DNA from: a virus | DNA length: 56,962 bases | Reading direction: 5' to 3' (one strand) | IMG/VR virus record: IMGVR_UViG_3300045988_070064 | Coordinates: 1-56,962 of that record | In this document: positions 5,951-14,138 of the stretch, in pieces | Position numbering within the stretch: the stretch's first letter is position 1 | Layout: each line of letters starts with the position of its first letter | Made by a program: the position numbers and the translations under genes | Notes under the pieces: model-generated | The model's input: the letters and a program-made list of their open reading frames with translations, nothing else | Database searches by the model: none | What the model was told of the DNA's origin: nothing

Positions 5951-6030
5951 AATAATCGCCTTTCTAGCCTATCTCATCAGCACCGGGAGGCTATCCCGCG
6001 GCGGACGCTCCGGAGAGCGTTTCGAAATTA

Positions 6031-6867: not shown

Positions 6868-7200
6868 ATGAAATCATTTAAAATTTATGCAGAACTTGGA
6901 AGCAATCCAGATACAGAACATTTTAAAGAGTTCATGAAATCGGTTGAGAACCGAATCAATAACGATTCGGAAATTATCGCGAGAGCAAAAGCCGGAAATG
7001 CGGAGTTTGCTAAAAAAATAAGCGAAATTTTAGCAAATGAAGAAAATTCGGAATTCATCGGCGGCATGATTGCGGAATTGCAGAAAAAACATCCAAGATA
7101 TTCTTATATCAAAGGATTAGAATTTGACGGGCGGGAGTATGAAGCAGAAATTGACGAATTAGAGCGCAAGTTCTATTTGCATGATGTCGGCAAAAAATAA
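6868..7200 (+). CDS. Hypothetical protein
   Basis: ATG 6868 after GGTGG; 110 aa. Confidence 0.6.
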   Translation: MKSFKIYAELGSNPDTEHFKEFMKSVENRINNDSEIIARAKAGNAEFAKKISEILANEENSEFIGGMIAELQKKHPRYSYIKGLEFDGREYEAEIDELERKFYLHDVGKK

Positions 7201-7227
7201 TTTTTGGATTCCAAAACAGATAAAAAG

Positions 7228-7251
7228 GACCGTTTCGGCGGTCTTTTTTTA
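7228..7251 (+). terminator. Rho-independent terminator
   Basis: GACCG/CGGTC stem followed by TTTTTTT. Confidence 0.7.
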
Positions 7252-7293
7252 TTGCCTAAAATTGGAAAAATTAAATGGGGCAAATTCAGCAAC

Positions 7294-7461
7294 TTAACAA
7301 ACAGAATTACAATCATTTAACGAGCAGAATTACAAACAGAAAAGCACCGCCAAAGTACCGACTTTTAGCGGTTTCCAGACAATGGGAAATTGCAATTTAA
7401 CAAACAGAAATGCAATCAAATCACAAACAGAAATGCAATCAGATTACAAACAGAACGAAAG
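7294..7461. repeat. Iteron array (5 copies of the ACAAACAGAA core)
   Basis: Cores at 7297, 7332, 7400, 7423, 7446; the last three are 23 bp apart and carry ACAAACAGAAATGCAATCA twice. Confidence 0.85.
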
Positions 7462-7536
7462 AAAATGAGAAAAAGAAAAGAAAGAAGCAAAGAAAAGAAT
7501 AAAGAGCAAAAGAAAGATATAAAAAGAAGTGAAGAA
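7452..7536 (+). repeat. Polypurine (A/G) tract
   Basis: About 85 nt of almost pure A/G on the + strand with only a handful of pyrimidines. Confidence 0.8.
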
Positions 7537-7539
7537 TAT

Positions 7540-7582
7540 ATATTATATAATAACCTTGAAAAGCTCGGTTATTATATAATAT
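7540..7582. repeat. Perfect 16-bp AT-rich inverted repeat
   Basis: ATATTATATAATAACC (7540-7555) / GGTTATTATATAATAT (7567-7582), 11-nt spacer; followed by GTCGGG-caaa-CCCGAC hairpin. Confidence 0.85.
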
Positions 7583-7650
7583 TTGTCGGGCAAACCCGAC
7601 CGCGGCAGACCGCACCCAAATAAATTTTTTTAAAAAAATAAAATTTTTCA

Positions 7651-7681
7651 TTGACAAATGAGCAAAAAAGGGGTCTATTAA
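7651..7681 (+). promoter_or_regulatory. Possible promoter of the packaging operon
   Basis: TTGACA (7651-7656), but only weak -10 candidates (TATTAA at 19-nt spacing). Confidence 0.3.
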
Positions 7682-7807
7682 AAGTATAGGACAACACAAG
7701 CCGACCAGATCAGACCAAAGCGGACGAGGTTGGATAAGATAGATCAGATCAGACAGAGCCGGGCAGAATCAACGGACTGTGCTGGAATCATTCAGGAGGT
7801 GGCTAAT

Positions 7808-8515: not shown

Positions 8516-8720
8516 CTTACTCTATTTGACAAACTATGGTTTGTCCAAGAGAGCGAAAGAAAGCAAGCAAAACCCGAACAGATGAGCGGATCCGGCAGAG
8601 ATTTGAGCAGATCCGCACCGAATGGACTGGAAGATGGGGAGGGGGTCTATATACGAACGTACGTTCGCCCTATTAAGTCCCCCAAATATCCCCAAAAACA
8701 AAAAACGGAGGTTGAGCCGA

Positions 8721-8930
8721 ATGAGAATAGTTTCACAAAGCCAAGATATATCTATCCCGTTAGACATAGCCGTGTTGAGACGAGATGGAATGACAATAAA
8801 TGCCGAGTTAGAAAACGGTAAAAATTATTTGTTAGGCGCGTATGAATCAGAAGAATCCGCGCAGGAAGAATTTAATCGAGTGAGCTCACTTATAAGTGCT
8901 GGACACTTGAACATAATACTAGGTAGTTAG
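8721..8930 (+). CDS. Small conserved phage protein (paralog of 38777-39067)
   Basis: ATG 8721 after ACGGAGG; MRIVSQSQDISIPLD...GAYESEESAQEEF parallels MRLISQDGTFDVPYD...ASYSSEEKAIKVM. Confidence 0.6.
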   Translation: MRIVSQSQDISIPLDIAVLRRDGMTINAELENGKNYLLGAYESEESAQEEFNRVSSLISAGHLNIILGS

Positions 8931-8963
8931 AATTTTTTGATATAACTTGTCCTTTTTCTTTAC

Positions 8964-8994
8964 ACCGTGCAGGTCGGTCAAATGTCTGTACGGT
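8964..8994 (+). ncRNA. Hairpin H1 with CGGTCAAATGT loop
   Basis: 9-bp stem ACCGTGCAG/CTGTACGGT; 13-nt loop containing CGGTCAAATGT (8975-8985). Confidence 0.6.
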
Positions 8995-9107
8995 TTACGG
9001 GGCTTAGCCGAGTTCCAAACTGTGGAAATCAAACACCGAGATCAGCGGTGCCGTGACAGTCGGTATTGGGTTGAAATACCTTTTTCATAATACCTCATAT
9101 TTGATTT

Positions 9108-9135
9108 CTGCTGTGGCGGTCAAATGTCATGGCAG
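9108..9135 (+). ncRNA. Hairpin H2 with CGGTCAAATGT loop
   Basis: 8-bp stem CTGCTGTG/CATGGCAG (a different sequence from H1); 12-nt loop containing the same CGGTCAAATGT (9117-9127). Confidence 0.6.
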
Positions 9136-9307
9136 AATTTAGGCAGGTTTAATAGTTCCTCCCTATTGATGATGTGAAAATCAAGTTTTGCTTTCCAGAG
9201 CAGAGCCGTTATAGCCGGTGGTTTTTAGAGTTTCTCATTACATGGGGAAACACTCCTTTCTATGATGTGTGTGCGTGCCTTTTGTCATTTTCATCACGCA
9301 CACAAAA

Positions 9308-9393
9308 CGGATTGCCGCATACTTGGCTGGATGCATTTGGGGAGAGATGTGTCTGATCTCGTGGGGTAAAAGGTTCGAATCCTTGCAATCCGA
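9308..9393 (+). ncRNA. tRNA-like element 1 (non-canonical, 86 nt)
   Basis: 8-bp acceptor helix CGGATTGC/GCAATCCG, D-like arm GCAT/ATGC, 5-bp GAGAT/ATCTC arm with loop GTGTCTG, T arm AAGG-TTCGAAT-CCTT; 9 extra nt between the D and anticodon-type arms. Confidence 0.45.
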
Positions 9394-9539
9394 TTATCGC
9401 CTAAGCCGAGTAAACGACACGGCGATATACTTTGGTAGTGGTGACAAGGTGTCAGTCTACTAAAAAAATCAAATAAGGGCAAGCCAAGGAATTATTCAGA
9501 TTAAACAATCTTTTCATCGTTCATGACTTGGCTTGTGTT

Positions 9540-9676
9540 GGATGATGCAAGGGGCAGGCAGCGTATTTTTATTCTTTACCGAGATGTCAAGGATCCTGAT
9601 ATATTAGGCGAGAATGAATTTATGTGATCGTTGCGCGCAAAAGGTCAGCCGTGCGGTTCAAGTCCGCACTCATCCA
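9540..9676 (+). ncRNA. tRNA-like element 2 (T arm plus distant acceptor-like pairing)
   Basis: Perfect T arm TGCGG-TTCAAGT-CCGCA (9652-9668); 3' CTCATCC pairs 6/7 with GGATGAT at 9540; about 104 nt intervene. Confidence 0.3.
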
Positions 9677-9861
9677 AAAACATTGCCGTTGGCCGGCAGT
9701 ATGAATGACATTGCTTTTAGCAAGCATTTTGAAATTTTGAGCGTCAGAAAAGACGATAAAATCAAACGGTGCCAAATGGCACCTATGACCGTATCTAAAC
9801 GACACACTACTGTAGTTGGGCTTTATCTACTGTAGTGAAAAGCCCTGGATGCGGTCATTAT

Positions 9862-9921
9862 GCAAGTGTATATGCCATGAGGGGCAATATTAAATTATGG
9901 GTTCGAATCCCATCACTTGCT
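9862..9921 (+). ncRNA. tRNA-like element 3 (60 nt, lacks D arm)
   Basis: 7-bp acceptor GCAAGTG/CACTTGC, perfect T arm ATGGG-TTCGAAT-CCCAT, and a single bulged hairpin in between. Confidence 0.45.
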
Positions 9922-10051
9922 TTGTTGCCTTATACTATCAGGGCAACAGAACCCCATTCATTATATTTGCATGGTCGTTGCTGGAATCCGGCAAGGTAAG
10001 AAATCGGCAGATTCGCCATGCAGATTCCGCAAATTAAAGGAGTGAAGAAAA

Positions 10052-10231
10052 ATGGCAAAAGGCGTACACAAGATTGACAAGGAAAAATTTTATTATGCGT
10101 ACAATCAATGGGCGGAATGTAAGATGAGCCTAACAAAAGCGGCAAAGTACGTCGGAGTTAGCCCGCCAACAATCAGTAAATATTTTTGGAAACTTATAAA
10201 TGGAGAAGAGTTTCCGGATAATTTGTTTTAA
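10052..10231 (+). CDS. Small HTH DNA-binding protein (59 aa)
   Basis: AAAGGAG RBS; ...SLTKAAKYVGVSPPTISKYF is HTH-like; just below the track cutoff. Confidence 0.55.
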   Translation: MAKGVHKIDKEKFYYAYNQWAECKMSLTKAAKYVGVSPPTISKYFWKLINGEEFPDNLF

Positions 10232-10270
10232 GGGGAAAGTGCAGGAAAGATTTTGAGAGGTTTATGAGAA

Positions 10271-10420
10271 ATGATTATGAGAAGAATGATTGATTTTGTA
10301 AAATCTTGGATTTATTATCCCAAAATGATTAAATACCTAAAAGACAGATGCGGAATAGATTATTATTGTTCAAGATTAAGATATTCTTGGTGGCATTGCC
10401 ATGCAGGAAAATTAAAATAA
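10271..10420 (+). CDS. Possible small Cys/Trp-rich ORF (49 aa)
   Basis: Open frame with several candidate ATGs; weak RBS (GAGAGG). Confidence 0.3.
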   Translation: MIMRRMIDFVKSWIYYPKMIKYLKDRCGIDYYCSRLRYSWWHCHAGKLK

Positions 10421-10452
10421 TTTGCTGATTATCAGCGGAAAGGAATCATATT

Positions 10453-10836
10453 ATGAAAAAATTATTTGTGAGCGTGCCTATGAAAGGCAGAACAGAAGAG
10501 GAAATCAAAGCAAGTATACAGAAAATGAAAAAAATTGCTGAAATCTACGAGGGCGAAGAACTGGAACTAATTGACAGTTACATCGAGGACAATCCACCGG
10601 AGAACAATAATCAGGCAATTTGGTATCTTGGTGAAAGCCTGAAAAAGTTGTCAGAAGCAGATGTGTTTATTGGAATCAATGAGAGTTACCAATGGAGCGG
10701 ACGCCAGATTGAAAGAGAAACAGTCTTGGCATATGGAATCAAAAATTATGCAGTCCCGGCGAATTATGTAATTGAAAAATACGATGAACTCTTTGATAAA
10801 TTACATCCGGTTTGTTGCAATGAAGCATCAAATTAA
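10453..10836 (+). CDS. Hypothetical protein (nucleoside 2-deoxyribosyltransferase-like / DUF4406-like fold suspected)
   Basis: MKKLFVSVPMKGRT..., ...ADVFIG...W.G.QIE...A..YGI pattern; weak recollection only. Confidence 0.3.
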   Translation: MKKLFVSVPMKGRTEEEIKASIQKMKKIAEIYEGEELELIDSYIEDNPPENNNQAIWYLGESLKKLSEADVFIGINESYQWSGRQIERETVLAYGIKNYAVPANYVIEKYDELFDKLHPVCCNEASN

Positions 10837-10852
10837 CAAGGAGGTTATAGTT

Positions 10853-11257
10853 ATGTTTACAATAGCACAATGGGTAGTTTTAGTGTTTTTACTTTTGATT
10901 GGGCTTGGTATAAGTCTTGCGTTTTTTGTAGATAAAGACACTAGAATTGCTGGCTTGGTAATTGTTTTTAGTACAGTTGTTGTTACTGTTTTGCTTGCGA
11001 TTTTTTTACACTGGTACAACACATCAACCGCAAGCGGAATCAGAGGCATGAAAGATTTCCGATCAAACCTTTCAAATGGTATTGAGCGAGAAATTACGAT
11101 TACCACGGAAGATGGTAGAGAAGTTTTTCACTATCAAGGGAAAATTGATGTAGAAAGCGATCATACCGATAATTACATCAAGTTTGAAAGTGAAGACGGA
11201 AAAAGGTACATAATTTACTATGGTATACAAGATACTGTAAAAATTATTGAAAAATGA
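10853..11257 (+). CDS. Two-TM membrane protein
   Basis: ATG 10853 after AAGGAGG; two hydrophobic helices, then a soluble domain. Confidence 0.65.
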   Translation: MFTIAQWVVLVFLLLIGLGISLAFFVDKDTRIAGLVIVFSTVVVTVLLAIFLHWYNTSTASGIRGMKDFRSNLSNGIEREITITTEDGREVFHYQGKIDVESDHTDNYIKFESEDGKRYIIYYGIQDTVKIIEK

Positions 11258-11314
11258 AAATAAAAAATTAACCGACTGAAAATAGATTCAGCCGCTAACC
11301 TAAAAAAATTATAG

Positions 11315-11357: not shown

Positions 11358-14138
11358 ATGTCAGCCGAATTGCGGCAAAGAATCCAAGAATATGAAAATT
11401 ACATAAAGCAAAATGGCATTGACGAAGATGCTATTGAAGCATACGTGCAGGCTTGTCAAGTAGCCATAGAGAGAGAAAAAGATATCAAGTATGGATTGAT
11501 ACTCACTAGTCGAGCAAAAGAGATTATAGAGCAATTTATCAAGGATTCCACCGGGGGAAATTCATGGGACCTGGAAAAATATTGCTTTGAAAACGATGTT
11601 TCCTACGAAATCTTAGATAAATTGTATGAGGTTTTGCTTTTGGAAGCCAGAAACAAGGTTGTTGATAGTTTTTTTAGGTACATTGAGAAGAAAAGATTGC
11701 CGAAAGAGCGGTTTTATATGCCGCGGAGAAAGCAATTTATAAAAATTGGTCTTATAGATGCTTTGCAAGGGATGATAGATGACAAATACGACATTTTGTG
11801 CATATCTCTTCCACCGGGGACTGGAAAAGCGCAGCCAATGTATTCAAAAGTGCTTACACCGGACGGATTTGTGAAAATGGGAGATATAAAAGTTGGTTCA
11901 AAAGTTGTCGCTGGAAATGGGAACGTTGCCAATGTCGTTGGAGTTTATCCGCAAGGAAAACGAGATATATATGAAATGACACTTGATGATGGTTCAAAAT
12001 GCCGTTGCTCTGACGAACATTTATGGACCGTCCAAAACAGAGAAGATCGTATCTATGAATCTAAAACAGGAGTTCATAGACAAAGAACAATTACATTGTC
12101 TGATTTGATGAAAAAATTGACCGTAGAAAGCGGAAAACGGTCTAATTATTCAATCGACTATGTAAAACCGATTGATTTTCCACAAAAAGAGTTGTTATTG
12201 CACCCATATGTAATGGGAGCATTACTTGGTGATGGTGGATTGTCTGGTGGTTCGGTTCGATTTTCTACATCAGATATGGAAATTGTTGACAGGATGAACC
12301 GCTATCTTCCAAACGGATATAGACTCAAACATGTGTCGAACTATGATTACGCAGTTGTTGGACATGAGGGGAACAATACAAAAAATGGAAGCCTTGTTTC
12401 TATTGCATTGAAAAAATACGGATTGTTTGGCAAAAAAAGCGAAGATAAGTTTATACCAAATGATTATCAGCATGCTTCAAATGAACAAAGATTATGGTTA
12501 TTGCGAGGTTTGCTAGATACAGATGGAAGTTGCGAAAAAACAAGTATTGAGTATACTACGTGTTCTGAAGAACTGGCGCAAAATGTCAAAGACTTGGTGC
12601 ATTCGCTAGGAGGATATGTGCATGAAACAGTTAGGAATTCCGGATATAAAAAAGACGGAAAATTCATTGAATGCAAACCGTCTCATAGGCTAACGATACA
12701 GTTTTTCAAAGAAAACGAATCTGTATTTGCACTATCAAGACATAAAGAAAAATACAATCCACAAAGAAAAAATGTAAAGCGATTTATAAAGTCAGTTGAG
12801 TATATCGGTAGAGAAGAATGTCAGTGCATTATGATTGATGATCCGTGCCACTTGTATATTACGGATGATTATATCATTACGCACAACACGACGATCGAAA
12901 AGTTTTTCCATTCTGCCGTTATAGGCTGGTATTCGAACGGATATAACCTTTTTTATTCACATAGTGGCGACATTACCAGAATGTACTATGATGGCGTATA
13001 TGACATCGTAACGAACGCAGACGAGTACACATGGAACGAGATATTTCCAAGGCTCAAAGTAACAAGCACAAATGCAAAGTTGGAAACGTTTAATGTAGGA
13101 AAGTATAAGCCATTCCAGTCTGTTCAATGTACGTCCGTTGGAAGTAAGAATGCCGGAAAAGTGCGTGCGAATAAATTTTTGCTTGTAGATGACATGATCG
13201 GTGGTATTGAAGAAGCATTAAATCCACTTTACCTTGATAAATTGTGGGGAAAATATGCTGTAGATGCAAGACAGAGAAAGATTCCGGACGAGGATGGAAA
13301 CCCATGTAAAGAGATACATATTGCTACGAGGTGGAGTGTCCGCGATGTCATTGGACGCATTATACAGGCCTATGAGGGCAACAAAAGAGTAAAAGTAATA
13401 TCAGTACCAGACATTGATCCAGTAACTGGAGAAAGCAATTTTGACTTTGAGTTTGGGGGATATACTGTAAAAGATTTTGAAGATATACAGTTACTTATGG
13501 ACGAAATCTCTTATCGTTGTCTGTACAAGCAGGATCCAATAGAGCGAGAGGGCTTACTGTTTCCAGAAGATAAGATTCGACGTTATCTTAATCTGCCACA
13601 CGGAGAACCAGAGATAATTACCAGTCAATGCGACACAAAGGGGAAAGGAACAGACTATTTTGTACTTCCAGTATTGCAGAAATATGGAGAAGATTACTAT
13701 TGCGTCGATTGTGTGTGTGATAATACGGCGGATTATGAGATGCAGTATGAAAATTCCGCTAATGTGCTGGTGAATAATCAAGTGCAGGAATGCGAGTTTG
13801 AGAGAAATGCTGGTGGAGACCGCGTTGGTATGGAAGTAAATAAACGTGTCGAAAGCAAAGGATGGATATGCAATATTACAGACACACCGACAGAGACAAA
13901 CAAAGAAGCAAGAATTTTCCAGTGTTCTAACTGGATTTTACAGCACGTAATATTCAAGGATCCATCATTGTATAAGCCTAACGAACCATATGGAGTGATG
14001 ATGTCTTTGTTAAAACAGTATTCTGTTTCCGGAAAAAAGCAGTTAGATGATGTTCCAGATGTGTTTTCTAACTTTGCGTTAAGGGTAACTGGTGGAAACA
14101 AGACAAGAAAAGCAGTTATTATTGCAAGTCCGATATAG
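11358..14138 (+). CDS. terL: Terminase large subunit, intein-containing precursor
   Basis: 926 aa. Walker A LPPGTGK is interrupted; removing residues 158-510 restores GTGKTT. LLVDDM Walker B-like motif. Lies upstream of the portal gene. Confidence 0.85.
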   Translation: MSAELRQRIQEYENYIKQNGIDEDAIEAYVQACQVAIEREKDIKYGLILTSRAKEIIEQFIKDSTGGNSWDLEKYCFENDVSYEILDKLYEVLLLEARNKVVDSFFRYIEKKRLPKERFYMPRRKQFIKIGLIDALQGMIDDKYDILCISLPPGTGKAQPMYSKVLTPDGFVKMGDIKVGSKVVAGNGNVANVVGVYPQGKRDIYEMTLDDGSKCRCSDEHLWTVQNREDRIYESKTGVHRQRTITLSDLMKKLTVESGKRSNYSIDYVKPIDFPQKELLLHPYVMGALLGDGGLSGGSVRFSTSDMEIVDRMNRYLPNGYRLKHVSNYDYAVVGHEGNNTKNGSLVSIALKKYGLFGKKSEDKFIPNDYQHASNEQRLWLLRGLLDTDGSCEKTSIEYTTCSEELAQNVKDLVHSLGGYVHETVRNSGYKKDGKFIECKPSHRLTIQFFKENESVFALSRHKEKYNPQRKNVKRFIKSVEYIGREECQCIMIDDPCHLYITDDYIITHNTTIEKFFHSAVIGWYSNGYNLFYSHSGDITRMYYDGVYDIVTNADEYTWNEIFPRLKVTSTNAKLETFNVGKYKPFQSVQCTSVGSKNAGKVRANKFLLVDDMIGGIEEALNPLYLDKLWGKYAVDARQRKIPDEDGNPCKEIHIATRWSVRDVIGRIIQAYEGNKRVKVISVPDIDPVTGESNFDFEFGGYTVKDFEDIQLLMDEISYRCLYKQDPIEREGLLFPEDKIRRYLNLPHGEPEIITSQCDTKGKGTDYFVLPVLQKYGEDYYCVDCVCDNTADYEMQYENSANVLVNNQVQECEFERNAGGDRVGMEVNKRVESKGWICNITDTPTETNKEARIFQCSNWILQHVIFKDPSLYKPNEPYGVMMSLLKQYSVSGKKQLDDVPDVFSNFALRVTGGNKTRKAVIIASPI
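11829..12887 (+). mobile_element. Intein (353 aa) with double-motif LAGLIDADG homing endonuclease
   Basis: Starts Ala-158 right after GTGK, ends ...IITHN|T. Block A-like SKVLTPDGFVKMGDIKVG, block B SDEHLW. LAGLIDADG motifs VMGALLGDGG and LLRGLLDTDGS. Confidence 0.8.

What the first reader, a model, noticed from the sequence alone, without database searches (positions are those of the whole stretch)
8931..10051. 1.1-kb helix-dense RNA locus with three tRNA-like modules and no convincing ORFs, wedged between terS and terL
The track shows only 60-73-aa ORFs here, none with an RBS. On the + strand I can hand-fold many perfect or near-perfect helices:
- 8964-8994
- 9062-9080
- 9108-9135
- 9268-9304 (10 bp)
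- 9395-9427
- 9480-9535 (9 bp)
- 9684-9698
- 9768-9783 (GGTGCC-aaat-GGCACC)
- 9805-9845
- 9924-9947
- 9983-10028

Three canonical tRNA T-loops occur in the same orientation: GGTTCGAATCC at 9372 and 9900, and GGTTCAAGTCC at 9655. Each is closed by a 6-8-bp acceptor-type helix, yet none gives a normal cloverleaf. Short motifs recur: CGGTCAAATGT x2, AGCCGAGT at 9006 and 9404, GCAGATTC at 10007 and 10020.

Established knowledge: the giant ornate RNAs GOLLD and ROOL are carried by phages and prophages of Firmicutes and typically abut or embed tRNAs. Inference: this could be a member of those classes, a new large phage RNA, or an array of tRNA-like decoys or fragments. I cannot verify any consensus from memory.
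Basis: partly seen in the sequence, partly recalled or inferred. Interest (0 to 1): 0.85.

Follow-up and report, generated by a model that had tools for sequence, protein, structure and literature searches.

The report
Phage tRNA-like noncoding RNA cassette
This 1.1-kb gene-free stretch of a gut phage is a real string of small structured RNA modules, including three tRNA look-alikes and two copies of a widespread RNA motif absent from Rfam, sitting where related phages keep their tRNA genes; it is not one giant GOLLD/ROOL-type RNA.

Summary
Window 8931-10051 has no conserved ORF. It carries three same-strand tRNA T-loops (0.21 expected by chance) and many helices, a subset of which is supported by compensatory changes across three phage lineages.

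No Rfam family (GOLLD, ROOL, tmRNA, introns) matches at E<=10. ARAGORN calls no tRNA. Only the third module scores as a truncated tRNA (30.9 bits).

The region is modular, not one global fold. Whole modules come and go between relatives.

It contains two tandem ~141-nt units. Each unit has a hairpin with the loop CGGUCAAAUGU and a ~45-nt motif, UGUGRAANYCAAR-hairpin-RCCGUNANAGYCGG. That motif matches 94 IMG/VR stretches (<1 expected), has strong covariation, and is absent from Rfam. It lies in or near phage tRNA arrays, often 5-8 nt upstream of a tRNA and upstream of terL.

Related phages carry real tRNAs between terS and terL. One of them (L226) also has the motif and "expanded" tRNA-like genes in the same terS to HTH-gene interval.

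Best reading: a tRNA-array-derived noncoding cassette, co-transcribed with the packaging genes and probably cut at the tRNA-like modules by RNase P and RNase Z. Its function is unknown.

The parts
8721..8930 (+). Upstream flank: 69-aa ORF (MRIVSQ...). It is conserved next to the locus in all three lineages. No known family matches.
   Evidence: gene calls in relatives
8965..8993 (+). Hairpin A1: 8-bp stem with the conserved 13-nt loop GUCGGUCAAAUGU.
   Evidence: Two pairs change on both sides and one changes to A-U in L023/L147, while the loop is invariant. z = -3.0.
9021..9063 (+). R1 motif copy 1: UGUGGAAAUCAAA-C-[hairpin 9034-9050]-GCCGUGACAGUCGG.
   Evidence: cmsearch with model R1 gives 50.8 bits, E = 6.5e-12.
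9108..9135 (+). Hairpin A2: paralogue of A1, with loop CGGUCAAAUGU.
   Evidence: Three pairs change on both sides and four more change on one side, all staying paired. z = -6.2. Absent in the one-unit variants L033/L034/L037/L144.
9173..9218 (+). R1 motif copy 2: UGUGAAAAUCAAG-U-[hairpin 9187-9204]-GCCGUUAUAGCCGG.
   Evidence: cmsearch with model R1 gives 54.4 bits, E = 7.2e-13.
9230..9304 (+). Two hairpins: 9230-9251 (7 bp) and 9268-9304 (10 bp).
   Evidence: z = -2.6 and -2.7. By eye, L023/L147 keep a hairpin of different sequence at the second position; in the formal count this helix shows only one-sided changes or unpaired cells.
9308..9393 (+). tRNA-like module 1: 7-bp acceptor stem, D-region CAUACUUGG, V-loop-like GGGGU, and a 4-bp T-stem with loop UUCGAAU. 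The anticodon domain is replaced by a variable, non-canonical arm.
   Evidence: A 37-nt block, CTCGTGGGGTAARAGGTTCGAATCCTTRCAATCCGAT, is invariant apart from two purine (A/G) positions across lineages that are only about 70% identical overall. ARAGORN makes no call.
9396..9535 (+). Three spacer hairpins: 9396-9426, 9435-9460 and 9480-9535. AAAUCAAA precedes the last one.
   Evidence: z = -2.4 to -3.3. Hairpin 9442-9454 has three pairs changed on both sides. The first hairpin is missing in L023/L147.
9538..9677 (+). tRNA-like module 2: an 8-bp closing acceptor-type stem and a 6-bp T-stem with loop UUCAAGU enclose a ~105-nt structured insert.
   Evidence: RNAalifold predicts 42 pairs, 12 of them with compensatory changes. 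T-stem pair C-G changes to G-U. L147 lacks the inner hairpin.
9678..9741 (+). Hypervariable spacer, including the 9684-9698 hairpin.
   Evidence: Replaced by unrelated sequence in L009/L010/L014/L034 and others.
9742..9783 (+). Conserved block: CGUC-AGAAAA-GACG hairpin, then AAAAUCAAAC, then the GGUGCC-AAAU-GGCACC hairpin.
   Evidence: The block is conserved in all three lineages. C-to-U changes in the second hairpin keep G-U pairs on the + strand only. z = -5.1.
9787..9856 (+). 70-nt self-contained hairpin element closed by an 8-bp stem. It behaves as an insertion/deletion unit.
   Evidence: Precisely absent in L009-L013. z = -4.5. No variation is available to test its pairs.
9862..9921 (+). 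tRNA-like module 3: 7-bp acceptor stem, a single middle arm, and a 5-bp T-stem with loop UUCGAAU. It is 60 nt long and lacks one arm.
   Evidence: Rfam tRNA scores 30.9 bits (gathering score 29), E = 5e-4, only with permissive filters. Absent in L076/L101 and in L023/L147.
9923..10017 (+). 3' hairpins: 9923-9948, 9978-9994 and 10006-10017.
   Evidence: z = -4.4 and -1.3. They are invariant in the lineage that has them.
10052..10231 (+). Downstream flank: 59-aa HTH protein. Its RBS AAAGGAG follows the locus directly.
   Evidence: HTH_3 matches weakly. The family is narrow; its main cluster, P0121, was seen on 350 contigs. There is a 49%-identical homologue in L226.

Best explanation
The locus is a protein-free, + strand cassette of small structured RNA modules inside the packaging (late) operon of a ~57-kb temperate phage from human-gut metagenomes. 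The host is probably a Firmicute.

**It has three kinds of parts**
1. Two tandem ~141-nt units. Each has a hairpin with the invariant loop CGGUCAAAUGU, followed by a ~45-nt motif that I call R1: UGUGRAANYCAAR, then a variable hairpin, then RCCGUNANAGYCGG.
2. Three tRNA-like modules. They keep the 12-14-bp acceptor/T-arm minihelix and a canonical T-loop, but their anticodon domain is replaced or missing.
3. About ten plain hairpins, some lying on segments that are inserted or deleted as units.

**Shown**
- The cassette occupies the interval where a more distant relative (L226) has ordinary tRNA genes, one R1 motif and over-long tRNA-like genes.
- Other relatives have ordinary tRNA genes between terS and terL.

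**Inferred origin**
The cassette is a derivative of a phage tRNA array in which no decoding tRNA remains.

**Inferred mechanism**
- It is transcribed with terS...terL, from the promoter-like region upstream of terS.
- The tRNA-like modules are recognised by host RNase P (5' side) and RNase Z or exonucleases (3' side).
- The transcript is therefore cut into several stable small RNAs: the R1-containing 5' piece, the tRNA-shaped pieces with their inserts, and the spacers. The cut also yields the 5' end of the downstream mRNA.

**Function not established**
The most plausible roles are tRNA-shaped decoys or scaffolds that lack a cleavable anticodon loop (tRNA-centred phage-host conflict), or RNA processing and stability signals.
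For: **No coding capacity**
- and the gene calls.

**Real RNA structure on the + strand**
- MFE is -374.7 kcal/mol on the + strand against -314.3 on the - strand.
- 18 pairs change on both sides, against 5.2 in shuffles (0/500). One-sided changes nearly always go to G-U.
- Module 2 has 12 compensatory pairs.

**tRNA-likeness**
- All three T-loop matches in 57 kb fall inside the locus.
- Rfam tRNA scores 30.9 bits on module 3.
- The acceptor/T-arm block of module 1 is invariant apart from two purine positions over 37 nt between lineages only about 70% identical.

**Modularity**
- Unit deletion 9033-9172.
- An A1/A2 hybrid hairpin in L139.
- Loss of 9788-9858 and of 9678-9959.
- Loss of module 3 in L023/L147.

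**R1 motif**
- 94 IMG/VR stretches match the pattern, where <1 is expected.
- 93.9% of cells are paired against 73% in shuffles. The covariation score is 0.589 against 0.181 (0/500), and slid controls stay at or below 0.12.
- The window has two copies, at 50.8 and 54.4 bits.
- In 12 of 59 distinct contexts a tRNA starts 5-8 nt downstream. The 86 motif loci hold 311 tRNAs.
- The motif lies between terS and terL, or shortly upstream of terL, in several phage groups.

**Synteny with tRNA arrays**
- L017, L018 and L020 have tRNA-Pro/Glu/Ile/Gln between terS and terL.
- L226 runs terS, tRNA-Asn, R1, then after 5 nt a 117-nt tRNA-like gene, a second tRNA-like gene, tRNA-Glu/Ser/Gln, the HTH59 homologue and terL.

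**Abundance and transcription context**
- The flanking HTH gene, and with it the cassette, was seen on 350 contigs.
- All neighbouring genes are on the + strand. No + strand terminator-like site with a stem of more than 5 pairs lies between terS and the locus.
Against: - There is no expression, end-mapping or cleavage data.
- RNase P/Z processing is inferred from shape alone.
- Modules 1 and 2 have imperfect D-stems, and ARAGORN and Rfam do not recognise them.
- Covariation depth is small: only three lineages, two of them represented by 1-4 sequences.
- The whole 3' third (9787-10017) does not vary, apart from rare single G-U changes, and is therefore untested.
- The origin from a tRNA array rests on synteny and shared motifs, not on alignable homology between the modules and any particular tRNA.
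- No + strand promoter or terminator was established for the locus itself.
Confidence: 0.6

Rival explanations
1. It is one large, globally folded "ornate" phage RNA of about 0.8-1.1 kb. It would be a new class analogous to GOLLD or ROOL, with embedded tRNA-like domains, possibly forming a multimeric assembly.
For: - Size, helix density and phage context fit.
- Folding z-scores are strongly negative over the whole stretch.
- A core of about 830 nt (8960-9790) is shared by all three lineages.
- From my own knowledge, GOLLD loci often abut tRNAs.
Against: - No GOLLD, ROOL or other large-RNA model matches at E<=10.
- Close relatives delete or duplicate whole modules: 141 nt, 70 nt and 282 nt, plus the inner hairpin of module 2. 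This would break a global fold.
- All supported pairs are local hairpins or module-closing stems.
- R1 occurs on its own in dozens of unrelated phages.
Confidence: 0.1
2. It is a decaying tRNA gene cluster. The modules are tRNA pseudogenes and leftover spacers with no present function.
For: - Related phages have real tRNA genes between terS and terL, and L226 has them in the same terS to HTH-gene interval.
- No module is a canonical tRNA.
- Module content varies between relatives.
Against: - The acceptor/T-arm block of module 1 is invariant apart from two purine positions over 37 nt, and the closing stem plus T-arm of module 2 are near-invariant, in lineages that differ at about 30% of positions. 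Compensatory changes occur in the T-stem and in hairpins.
- The variable part is specifically the anticodon domain.
- The main cluster of the flanking HTH gene (P0121) was seen on 350 contigs; in all 10 loci fetched from it the gap is 950-1125 nt.
- Similar over-long tRNA-like genes recur in many other phages.
Confidence: 0.12
3. The modules are real tRNA genes interrupted by small introns or inserts. After an unknown cleavage and ligation step, for example with an RtcB-type ligase, they would become decoding tRNAs.
For: - In R1-bearing phages many 113-149-nt genes have perfect acceptor, D and T arms. At least one (L167 8380-8498) has an anticodon stem with a CUUUCAA loop followed by an insert.
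- RtcB is present in relative L139 and RLIG1 in L020.
Against: - None of the window's three modules has a recognisable anticodon stem and 7-nt loop flanking its insert.
- The anticodon region of module 1 differs completely between lineages.
- Module 3 is only 60 nt long.
- The window itself encodes no RNA ligase among the ORFs scanned.
Confidence: 0.07
4. It is a DNA-level signal, such as a pac/cos site, a terminase-binding array or a replication origin, rather than an RNA.
For: - It lies between terS and terL.
- It has repeated short motifs (CGGTCAAATGT x2, AAATCAA x4) and many inverted repeats.
Against: - Stems keep pairing through compensatory changes and through changes to G-U that pair only on the + strand.
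- The two strands differ by 60 kcal/mol in folding energy.
- Canonical tRNA T-loops are present.
- The iteron-rich, inverted-repeat-rich region upstream of terS (7200-7807) is a better packaging-site candidate.
Confidence: 0.04

Closest known systems
Phage tRNA gene arrays
   Same: - Same genomic slot in related phages: between terS and terL, on the sense strand.
- Acceptor/T-arm minihelix with a canonical GGUUCRANUCC T-loop.
- Co-occurrence with the R1 motif.
   Different: - No module has an anticodon arm, and none is called by ARAGORN.
- Only one passes the Rfam tRNA threshold, and it is a 60-nt truncated form.
- The cassette therefore cannot supply decoding tRNAs as it stands.
tRNA-like structures that use only the tRNA "top half": the tmRNA tRNA-like domain, bacterial Y RNA YrlA, mascRNA-type processing signals and the engineered "tRNA scaffold" for RNA expression
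   Same: The acceptor and T-arm are retained while the anticodon domain is replaced by other RNA. Processing and stabilisation by RNase P and RNase Z would be expected; this part rests on established knowledge of those systems, not on a test here.
   Different: - No tmRNA is called.
- YrlA scores 17 bits against a gathering score of 69, and YrlA is circularly permuted relative to these modules.
- No Ro/Rsr gene turned up among the ORFs scanned.
- Three modules are arranged in tandem with R1 units, which has no described counterpart that I could find.
GOLLD (RF01998) and ROOL (RF03087) large ornate RNAs
   Same: Phage or prophage location, size of the order of 0.6-1 kb, high helix density, and proximity to tRNA-type elements.
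   Different: - No covariance-model match, even at E<=10.
- The architecture is modular and tolerant of indels.
- There is no evidence for a conserved global fold.
Theta (minimal HDV-like) ribozymes next to tRNAs of gut phages (PMC10879173)
   Same: R1 is a small conserved RNA motif of uncultivated, mostly gut phages, and it is tightly associated with tRNA genes.
   Different: - Theta ribozymes abut the 3' end of a tRNA, with the cleavage site within +/-5 nt. R1 sits 5-8 nt upstream of the 5' end of a tRNA.
- The covarying pairs of R1 (R13-Y11' closing a hairpin plus a 9-nt joiner) do not fit the nested double pseudoknot of HDV-like ribozymes.
- No HDV family hit was found.

Membership tests
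GOLLD RNA (Rfam RF01998) | Match to the family covariance model (~800-nt conserved multi-pseudoknot fold) | tested here: not met
   cmscan against all Rfam 15 families finds nothing at gathering score in the window. Nothing appears at E<=10 with permissive filters on 8600-10400 or on L023 6900-8100.
ROOL RNA (Rfam RF03087) | Match to the family covariance model (~580 nt) | tested here: not met
   Same searches as for GOLLD; no hit at E<=10.
tRNA (Rfam RF00005 / ARAGORN) | Score at or above the curated threshold of a tRNA model | tested here: inconclusive
   Module 3 (9862-9921) scores 30.9 bits against a gathering score of 29, but only with permissive filters and not in the default scan. Modules 1 and 2 get no hit. 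ARAGORN finds 0 genes in the window and in six relatives.
tRNA (Rfam RF00005 / ARAGORN) | Cloverleaf with a 5-bp anticodon stem and 7-nt anticodon loop | tested here: not met
   Module 1 has a variable irregular arm in that place. Module 2 has a ~105-nt insert. Module 3 has a single arm between the acceptor and T arms.
tRNA (Rfam RF00005 / ARAGORN) | 7-bp acceptor stem stacked on a 5-bp T-stem with a GUUCRANYC T-loop | tested here: met
   Modules 1 and 3 have 7 + 5 pairs (one mismatch in module 1). Module 2 has 8 + 6 pairs.
tmRNA | tRNA-like domain plus tag-peptide reading frame and pseudoknots, as detected by ARAGORN or Rfam | tested here: not met
   ARAGORN tmRNA search finds nothing. No Rfam tmRNA family matches at E<=10.
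Bacterial Y RNA (YrlA, RF02553) | Covariance-model match | tested here: not met
   17 bits against a gathering score of 69, E = 3.1, at 9865-9976.
Bacterial Y RNA (YrlA, RF02553) | Adjacent Ro60/Rsr gene | tested here: inconclusive
   No TROVE/Rsr domain appeared among the 38 window ORFs scanned with Pfam, but not every ORF was scanned. RtcB occurs in relative L139 only.
Group I / group II introns | Covariance-model match | tested here: not met
   No hit at E<=10.
HDV-like / theta ribozyme (tested for the R1 motif) | Nested double-pseudoknot fold with the cleavage site at a tRNA 3' end | tested here: inconclusive
   No Rfam HDV-family hit. The position relative to tRNAs is opposite. The covarying pairs do not fit that fold. 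The published RNArobo descriptor was not available to run.
R1 motif (defined here; model R1) | UGUGRAANYCAAR + covarying hairpin + RCCGUNANAGYCGG, with the R-Y pair | tested here: met
   The two window copies score 50.8 and 54.4 bits. These copies, taken from near-identical relatives, were part of the seed alignment, so their scores are not independent.

The most novel reading that the evidence does not exclude
**R1 as a new RNA class**
R1 would be a previously undescribed, widespread class of phage structured RNA: about 27 invariant positions, a covarying hairpin and a pseudoknot-like R-Y pair into a T-loop-like heptaloop. It would act on neighbouring tRNA-type RNAs, for example as a self-cleaving or RNase-guiding 5'-leader element, or as an elbow-binding chaperone.

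**The tRNA-like modules as tools**
The window's tRNA-like modules would belong to a likewise undescribed family of natural "tRNA-scaffolded" RNAs. Phages would use these as anticodon-less decoys against tRNA-targeting defence nucleases, or as stable carriers of small functional RNAs.

**What this makes of the 1.1-kb cassette**
It would be a tRNA array wholly converted to this use.
Probability: 0.3. Interest if true: 0.85.

Novelty: new variant of a known kind. Interest (0 to 1): 0.6.

Why it matters
Phage tRNA genes are now seen as weapons in tRNA-centred conflicts with host defence nucleases (for example PMC10264068). A cassette that keeps the tRNA body but has lost every anticodon arm, yet stays conserved on hundreds of gut-phage contigs, suggests that phages also exploit tRNA shape without decoding. 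The shape could serve as a decoy, a processing signal or a scaffold.

The R1 motif found on the way is a compact, strongly covarying RNA present in dozens of otherwise unrelated uncultivated phages. It lies next to tRNAs and upstream of the large terminase gene, and it is absent from Rfam 15. It is a concrete, testable candidate for a new functional RNA class.

For annotation, the result also shows that such gaps should not be filed as GOLLD/ROOL-like on size and helix density alone.

Tried and rejected
**Database and literature searches that gave nothing for the locus**
- blastn of the locus against 50,697 GenBank phage records found no match.
- blastn of an R1 + tRNA stretch hit only the tRNA part.
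- Five literature searches (GOLLD/ROOL/tRNA-like; RAGATH/self-cleaving; tRNA arrays; tRNA scaffold; phage tRNA introns) found no description of the locus or of R1.

**Pattern scans that were uninformative or wasted**
- The genome-contig scan with GGTCAAATGT...GGTCAAATGT was too loose. It gave 90 hits, and only two (L076, L101) were real relatives. The others were chance matches or unrelated tandem repeats.
- One viral scan was wasted on a mis-specified pattern with one N too many.

**Ideas tested and dropped**
- Hairpin-A loops mimic a CRISPR repeat (RNA anti-CRISPR). The periodic hits turned out to be spacer-less tandem repeats or protein repeats, and similarity did not extend beyond the 11-mer.
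- The hairpin-A loop pairs with ACAUUUG in module 1. The pairing is not conserved in L023/L147 (by eye).
- R1 is an ECF-sigma-type promoter (GAAC...CGT). The spacer varies from 16 to 32 nt and forms a covarying hairpin rich in G-U pairs.
- R1 has a conserved downstream gene partner. The downstream ORFs are diverse.

**Limits of the homologue search**
- The 59-aa flanking protein family is too narrow to reach more distant loci: only 4 clusters.

**My own sliding z-score script**
- It used only 25 shuffles per window and is noisy. I rely instead.
Full report
**1. What the window is**

The 56,962-bp window looks like a complete, circularly permuted genome of a temperate tailed phage.
- It encodes a TerS-like protein. 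Its true start is ATG 7808, and some homologues carry PF16677.
- It encodes an intein-containing TerL (11358-14138), an SPP1-type portal, a RecT-like protein, a DnaB-type helicase/primase, a sigma-70-like protein and a Tn916-type integrase.
- Near-identical contigs of 55-58 kb come from human-gut metagenomes.
- Strong AAGGAG ribosome-binding sites, and one relative binned with a Lachnospiraceae MAG, suggest a Firmicute host. This is weak evidence.

**2.

*No coding capacity*
- Between the 69-aa ORF (8721-8930) and the 59-aa HTH ORF (10052-10231) there is no ORF longer than 73 aa.
- The longest stop-to-stop frame is 75 codons, shorter than in shuffled sequence (86 +/- 19). No frame is conserved across lineages.
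- Independent gene calls leave the homologous 860-1125-nt gap empty in every relative.

*T-loops*
- The tRNA T-loop consensus GGTTCRANTCC occurs three times in the window, all inside the locus and all on the + strand. Shuffles expect 0.21.

*Folding*
- The + strand folds to -374.7 kcal/mol and the - strand to -314.3 kcal/mol.
- Fourteen non-R1 segments have z-scores from -1.3 to -6.2, most of them -2.2 or lower.

**3. What it is not**

- Rfam 15 at gathering thresholds finds only a type II hammerhead elsewhere, at 5963-6027 on the - strand.
- With permissive filters and E<=10, the locus gives only three hits: a truncated tRNA match for 9862-9921 (30.9 bits; gathering score 29), and insignificant YrlA (17 bits) and poplar-1 hits.
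- The divergent relative L023 gives nothing relevant.
- ARAGORN finds no tRNA or tmRNA in the window or in six relatives.
- GOLLD, ROOL, tmRNA, Y RNA and intron membership all therefore fail a direct test.

**4. Relatives and covariation**

I collected 29 distinct versions of the locus in three lineages:
- the window group, 88-99% identical;
- L023-type, about 70% identical;
- L147, 74% identical to L023.

On the 29-sequence alignment A9, with 33 helices taken from the window:
- 97.5% of cells pair.
- 18 pairs have changes on both sides, against 5.2 +/- 1.8 in shuffles (0/500) and 4-12 in slid controls.
- One-sided changes are almost all to G-U, which pairs only on the + strand.

Support by region:
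- Clear support: hairpins A1 and A2, the hairpins inside the two R1 copies, 9442-9454, the inner hairpin and T-stem of module 2, and 9768-9783.
- RNAalifold on module 2 gives 12 compensatory pairs.
- Untested: the 3' third (9787-10017) exists only in the closely related group and, apart from rare single G-U changes, does not vary.

**5. Architecture: modular, not global**

Relatives differ by clean gain or loss of modules:
- One of the two 141-nt 5' units is absent in L033/L034/L037/L144.
- L139 carries a hybrid A1/A2 hairpin that still pairs.
- The 70-nt hairpin element 9787-9856 is absent in L009-L013.
- 9678-9959, including module 3, is absent in L076/L101.
- L023/L147 lack the 9396-9426 hairpin and everything after about 9790. 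They end in a long hairpin plus a T-run just before the HTH gene's ribosome-binding site.
- L147 lacks the inner hairpin of module 2.
- 9678-9741 is replaced by unrelated sequence in several relatives.

All supported pairs are local. This argues against one ornate global fold.

**6. The tRNA-like modules**

*Module 1 (9308-9393)*
- It has a 7-bp acceptor stem stacked on a T-stem (4 pairs plus a mismatch) with loop UUCGAAU.
- It has a conserved D-region, CAUACUUGG, and a GGGGU stretch like the variable loop of real phage tRNAs found with the same search pattern (L035/L038).
- A 37-nt block covering the V-loop, T-arm and 3' acceptor strand is invariant apart from two purine positions across all three lineages.
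- The region where the anticodon arm should be is unalignable between lineages.

*Module 2 (9538-9677)*
- An invariant 8-bp stem and a 6-bp T-stem close a ~105-nt structured insert.

*Module 3 (9862-9921)*
- It is a 60-nt acceptor/one-arm/T-arm form.

So the tRNA "top half" is under selection and the anticodon is not.

**7. The repeated 5' unit contains a widespread motif (R1)**

*Discovery*
- Aligning the two units of all lineages showed a shared pattern: UGUGRAANYCAAR, a variable hairpin, then RCCGUNANAGYCGG.
- A scan of IMG/VR with that pattern returned 94 stretches, where I estimate <1 by chance. The hits come from many unrelated contigs of 22-166 kb.

*Structure, on 49 distinct copies*
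- The hairpin pairs show all four Watson-Crick types plus G-U.
- The R of CAAR covaries with the Y of AGYCGG: G-C 37, A-U 10, G-U 1, other 1.
- Overall, 93.9% of cells are paired against 73% in shuffles. The covariation score is 0.589 against 0.181 (0/500), and slid controls stay at or below 0.12.
- The invariant CCG-UNANAGY-CGG could form a 3-bp stem with a T-loop-like heptaloop whose last two bases make the covarying pairs. That reading is my inference.

*Distribution*
- A covariance model (R1) finds exactly two copies in the window (50.8 and 54.4 bits).
- It usually finds one copy per locus elsewhere.
- No Rfam family matches a typical copy at E<=10.
- No GenBank phage record matches it by blastn.

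*Context*
- The 86 R1 loci hold 311 tRNA genes.
- In 12 of 59 distinct contexts a tRNA, mostly Lys or Asp, begins 5-8 nt after the motif.
- In several phage groups R1 lies between terS and terL, or a few hundred nt upstream of terL, always in the sense orientation.
- Downstream ORFs, where present, are diverse.

**8. Synteny with tRNA arrays**

- Phages whose TerS is 43-48% identical but which lack the cassette carry tRNA-Pro/Glu/Ile/Gln between terS and terL.
- L226 (TerL ~55-59% identical over the two aligned segments, HTH59 49% identical) is the clearest bridge. Its order is:
  - terS;
  - a small ORF;
  - tRNA-Asn;
  - R1;
  - after 5 nt, a 117-nt tRNA-like gene with normal acceptor, D and T arms but about 70 extra nt in place of the anticodon arm;
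  - a second such gene;
  - tRNA-Glu, tRNA-Ser, an ORF and tRNA-Gln;
  - the HTH59 homologue;
  - terL.
- A simple screen found 42 distinct non-canonical acceptor + T-arm elements in the loci screened. About 35 of them are in R1 loci, many 113-149 nt long, and ARAGORN does not call them.
- The window's cassette thus looks like the same genomic module with all decoding tRNAs gone.

**9. Mechanism (inferred)**

- All neighbouring genes are on the + strand.
- The promoter-like and iteron-rich region lies upstream of terS (7200-7807).
- No + strand terminator-like site with a stem of more than 5 pairs separates terS from the locus.
- I therefore expect co-transcription with the packaging genes, followed by RNase P and RNase Z cleavage at the three minihelix modules. 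The substrate rules of those enzymes are established knowledge; cleavage was not tested here.
- This would release R1-containing and tRNA-shaped small RNAs.
- What they do is open. The candidates are anticodon-less decoys for tRNA-targeting defences, tRNA-scaffolded cargo RNAs, or processing and stability signals.
- RtcB in relative L139 and RLIG1 in L020 hint at an RNA-repair theme, but they lie in variable regions.

**10. Verdict**

- The GOLLD/ROOL reading is rejected.
- The "array of tRNA-like elements" reading is supported and sharpened.
- Main uncertainties: no expression data, shallow phylogenetic depth for the 3' third, and an unknown function for both R1 and the modules.

Noticed in passing
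window 5963-6027 (- strand): Type II hammerhead ribozyme: 44.3 bits against a gathering score of 37, with a full-length model match. It lies about 3 kb upstream of the locus, on the opposite strand, among small leftward genes.
   Followed up: no
window 7200-7807: A gene-free region upstream of terS. It has a terminator-like hairpin (7228-7243 plus a T-run), about six ACAAACAGAA-type iterons (7289-7466), an A/G-rich tract, a perfect 16-nt inverted repeat (7540-7555/7567-7582) and a TTGACA promoter-like site at 7651. It is probably the late promoter and/or the pac/cos recognition region. A weak R1 look-alike lies on the - strand at 7350-7408 (9.2 bits).
   Followed up: partly
window 11358-14138: The large terminase gene carries a LAGLIDADG-type intein (926 aa). 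Several close relatives have intein-less 577-582-aa versions.
   Followed up: partly
L153-L238 (IMG/VR loci), e.g. L156 7730-7777 (-), L164 2079-2126 (+), L226 9453-9500 (-): The R1 motif (UGUGRAANYCAAR, covarying hairpin, RCCGUNANAGYCGG) matches 94 viral-contig stretches. It is usually single-copy, lies in or near tRNA arrays and upstream of terL, and often sits 5-8 nt before a tRNA. It is not in Rfam 15 and blastn did not find it in GenBank phages.
   Followed up: yes
L167 8380-8498, 9946-10091, 10806-10934, 12783-12899 (-); L200 6259-6387; L204 4193-4309; L211 1186-1308; L215 4556-4694; L226 9332-9448 (-); L017 8002-8149: Many phage "expanded" tRNA-like genes of 113-149 nt have normal acceptor, D and T arms but 40-75 extra nt in the anticodon region. 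ARAGORN misses them. At least one has an anticodon stem with a CUUUCAA loop followed by an insert, which is intron-like. Several inserts carry a hairpin with loop GGCAGNA and a covarying stem (15 hits against about 2.5 in shuffles).
   Followed up: partly
L139 5371-6579; L020 10890-11534: RNA-repair or ligase genes lie in the variable region between the cassette or tRNA cluster and terL of related phages: RtcB in L139 and RLIG1 in L020. Neither is present in the window.
   Followed up: no
L156 11505-11661, 13942-14072, 14178-14249 (-); L161 3223-3546: R1-bearing phage contigs also carry RAGATH-4, RAGATH-16 and RAGATH-36 RNAs and a group I intron. These regions are unusually rich in structured RNAs.
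   Followed up: no
L065 3343-3593 and L099 ~885-1016 (Clostridiales MAG): A 61-nt tandem repeat (about 4 copies) between two ATP synthase c-subunit gene copies contains CGGTCAAATGTC and GTGTGAAATGAAG. These resemble the hairpin-A loop and the 5' part of R1. It is probably a coincidence of the search pattern.
   Followed up: partly
window 10238-11258 against relatives: The stretch between the HTH59 gene and terL is a hot spot for gene replacement. Relatives carry different small ORFs, RtcB, or nothing there.
   Followed up: no
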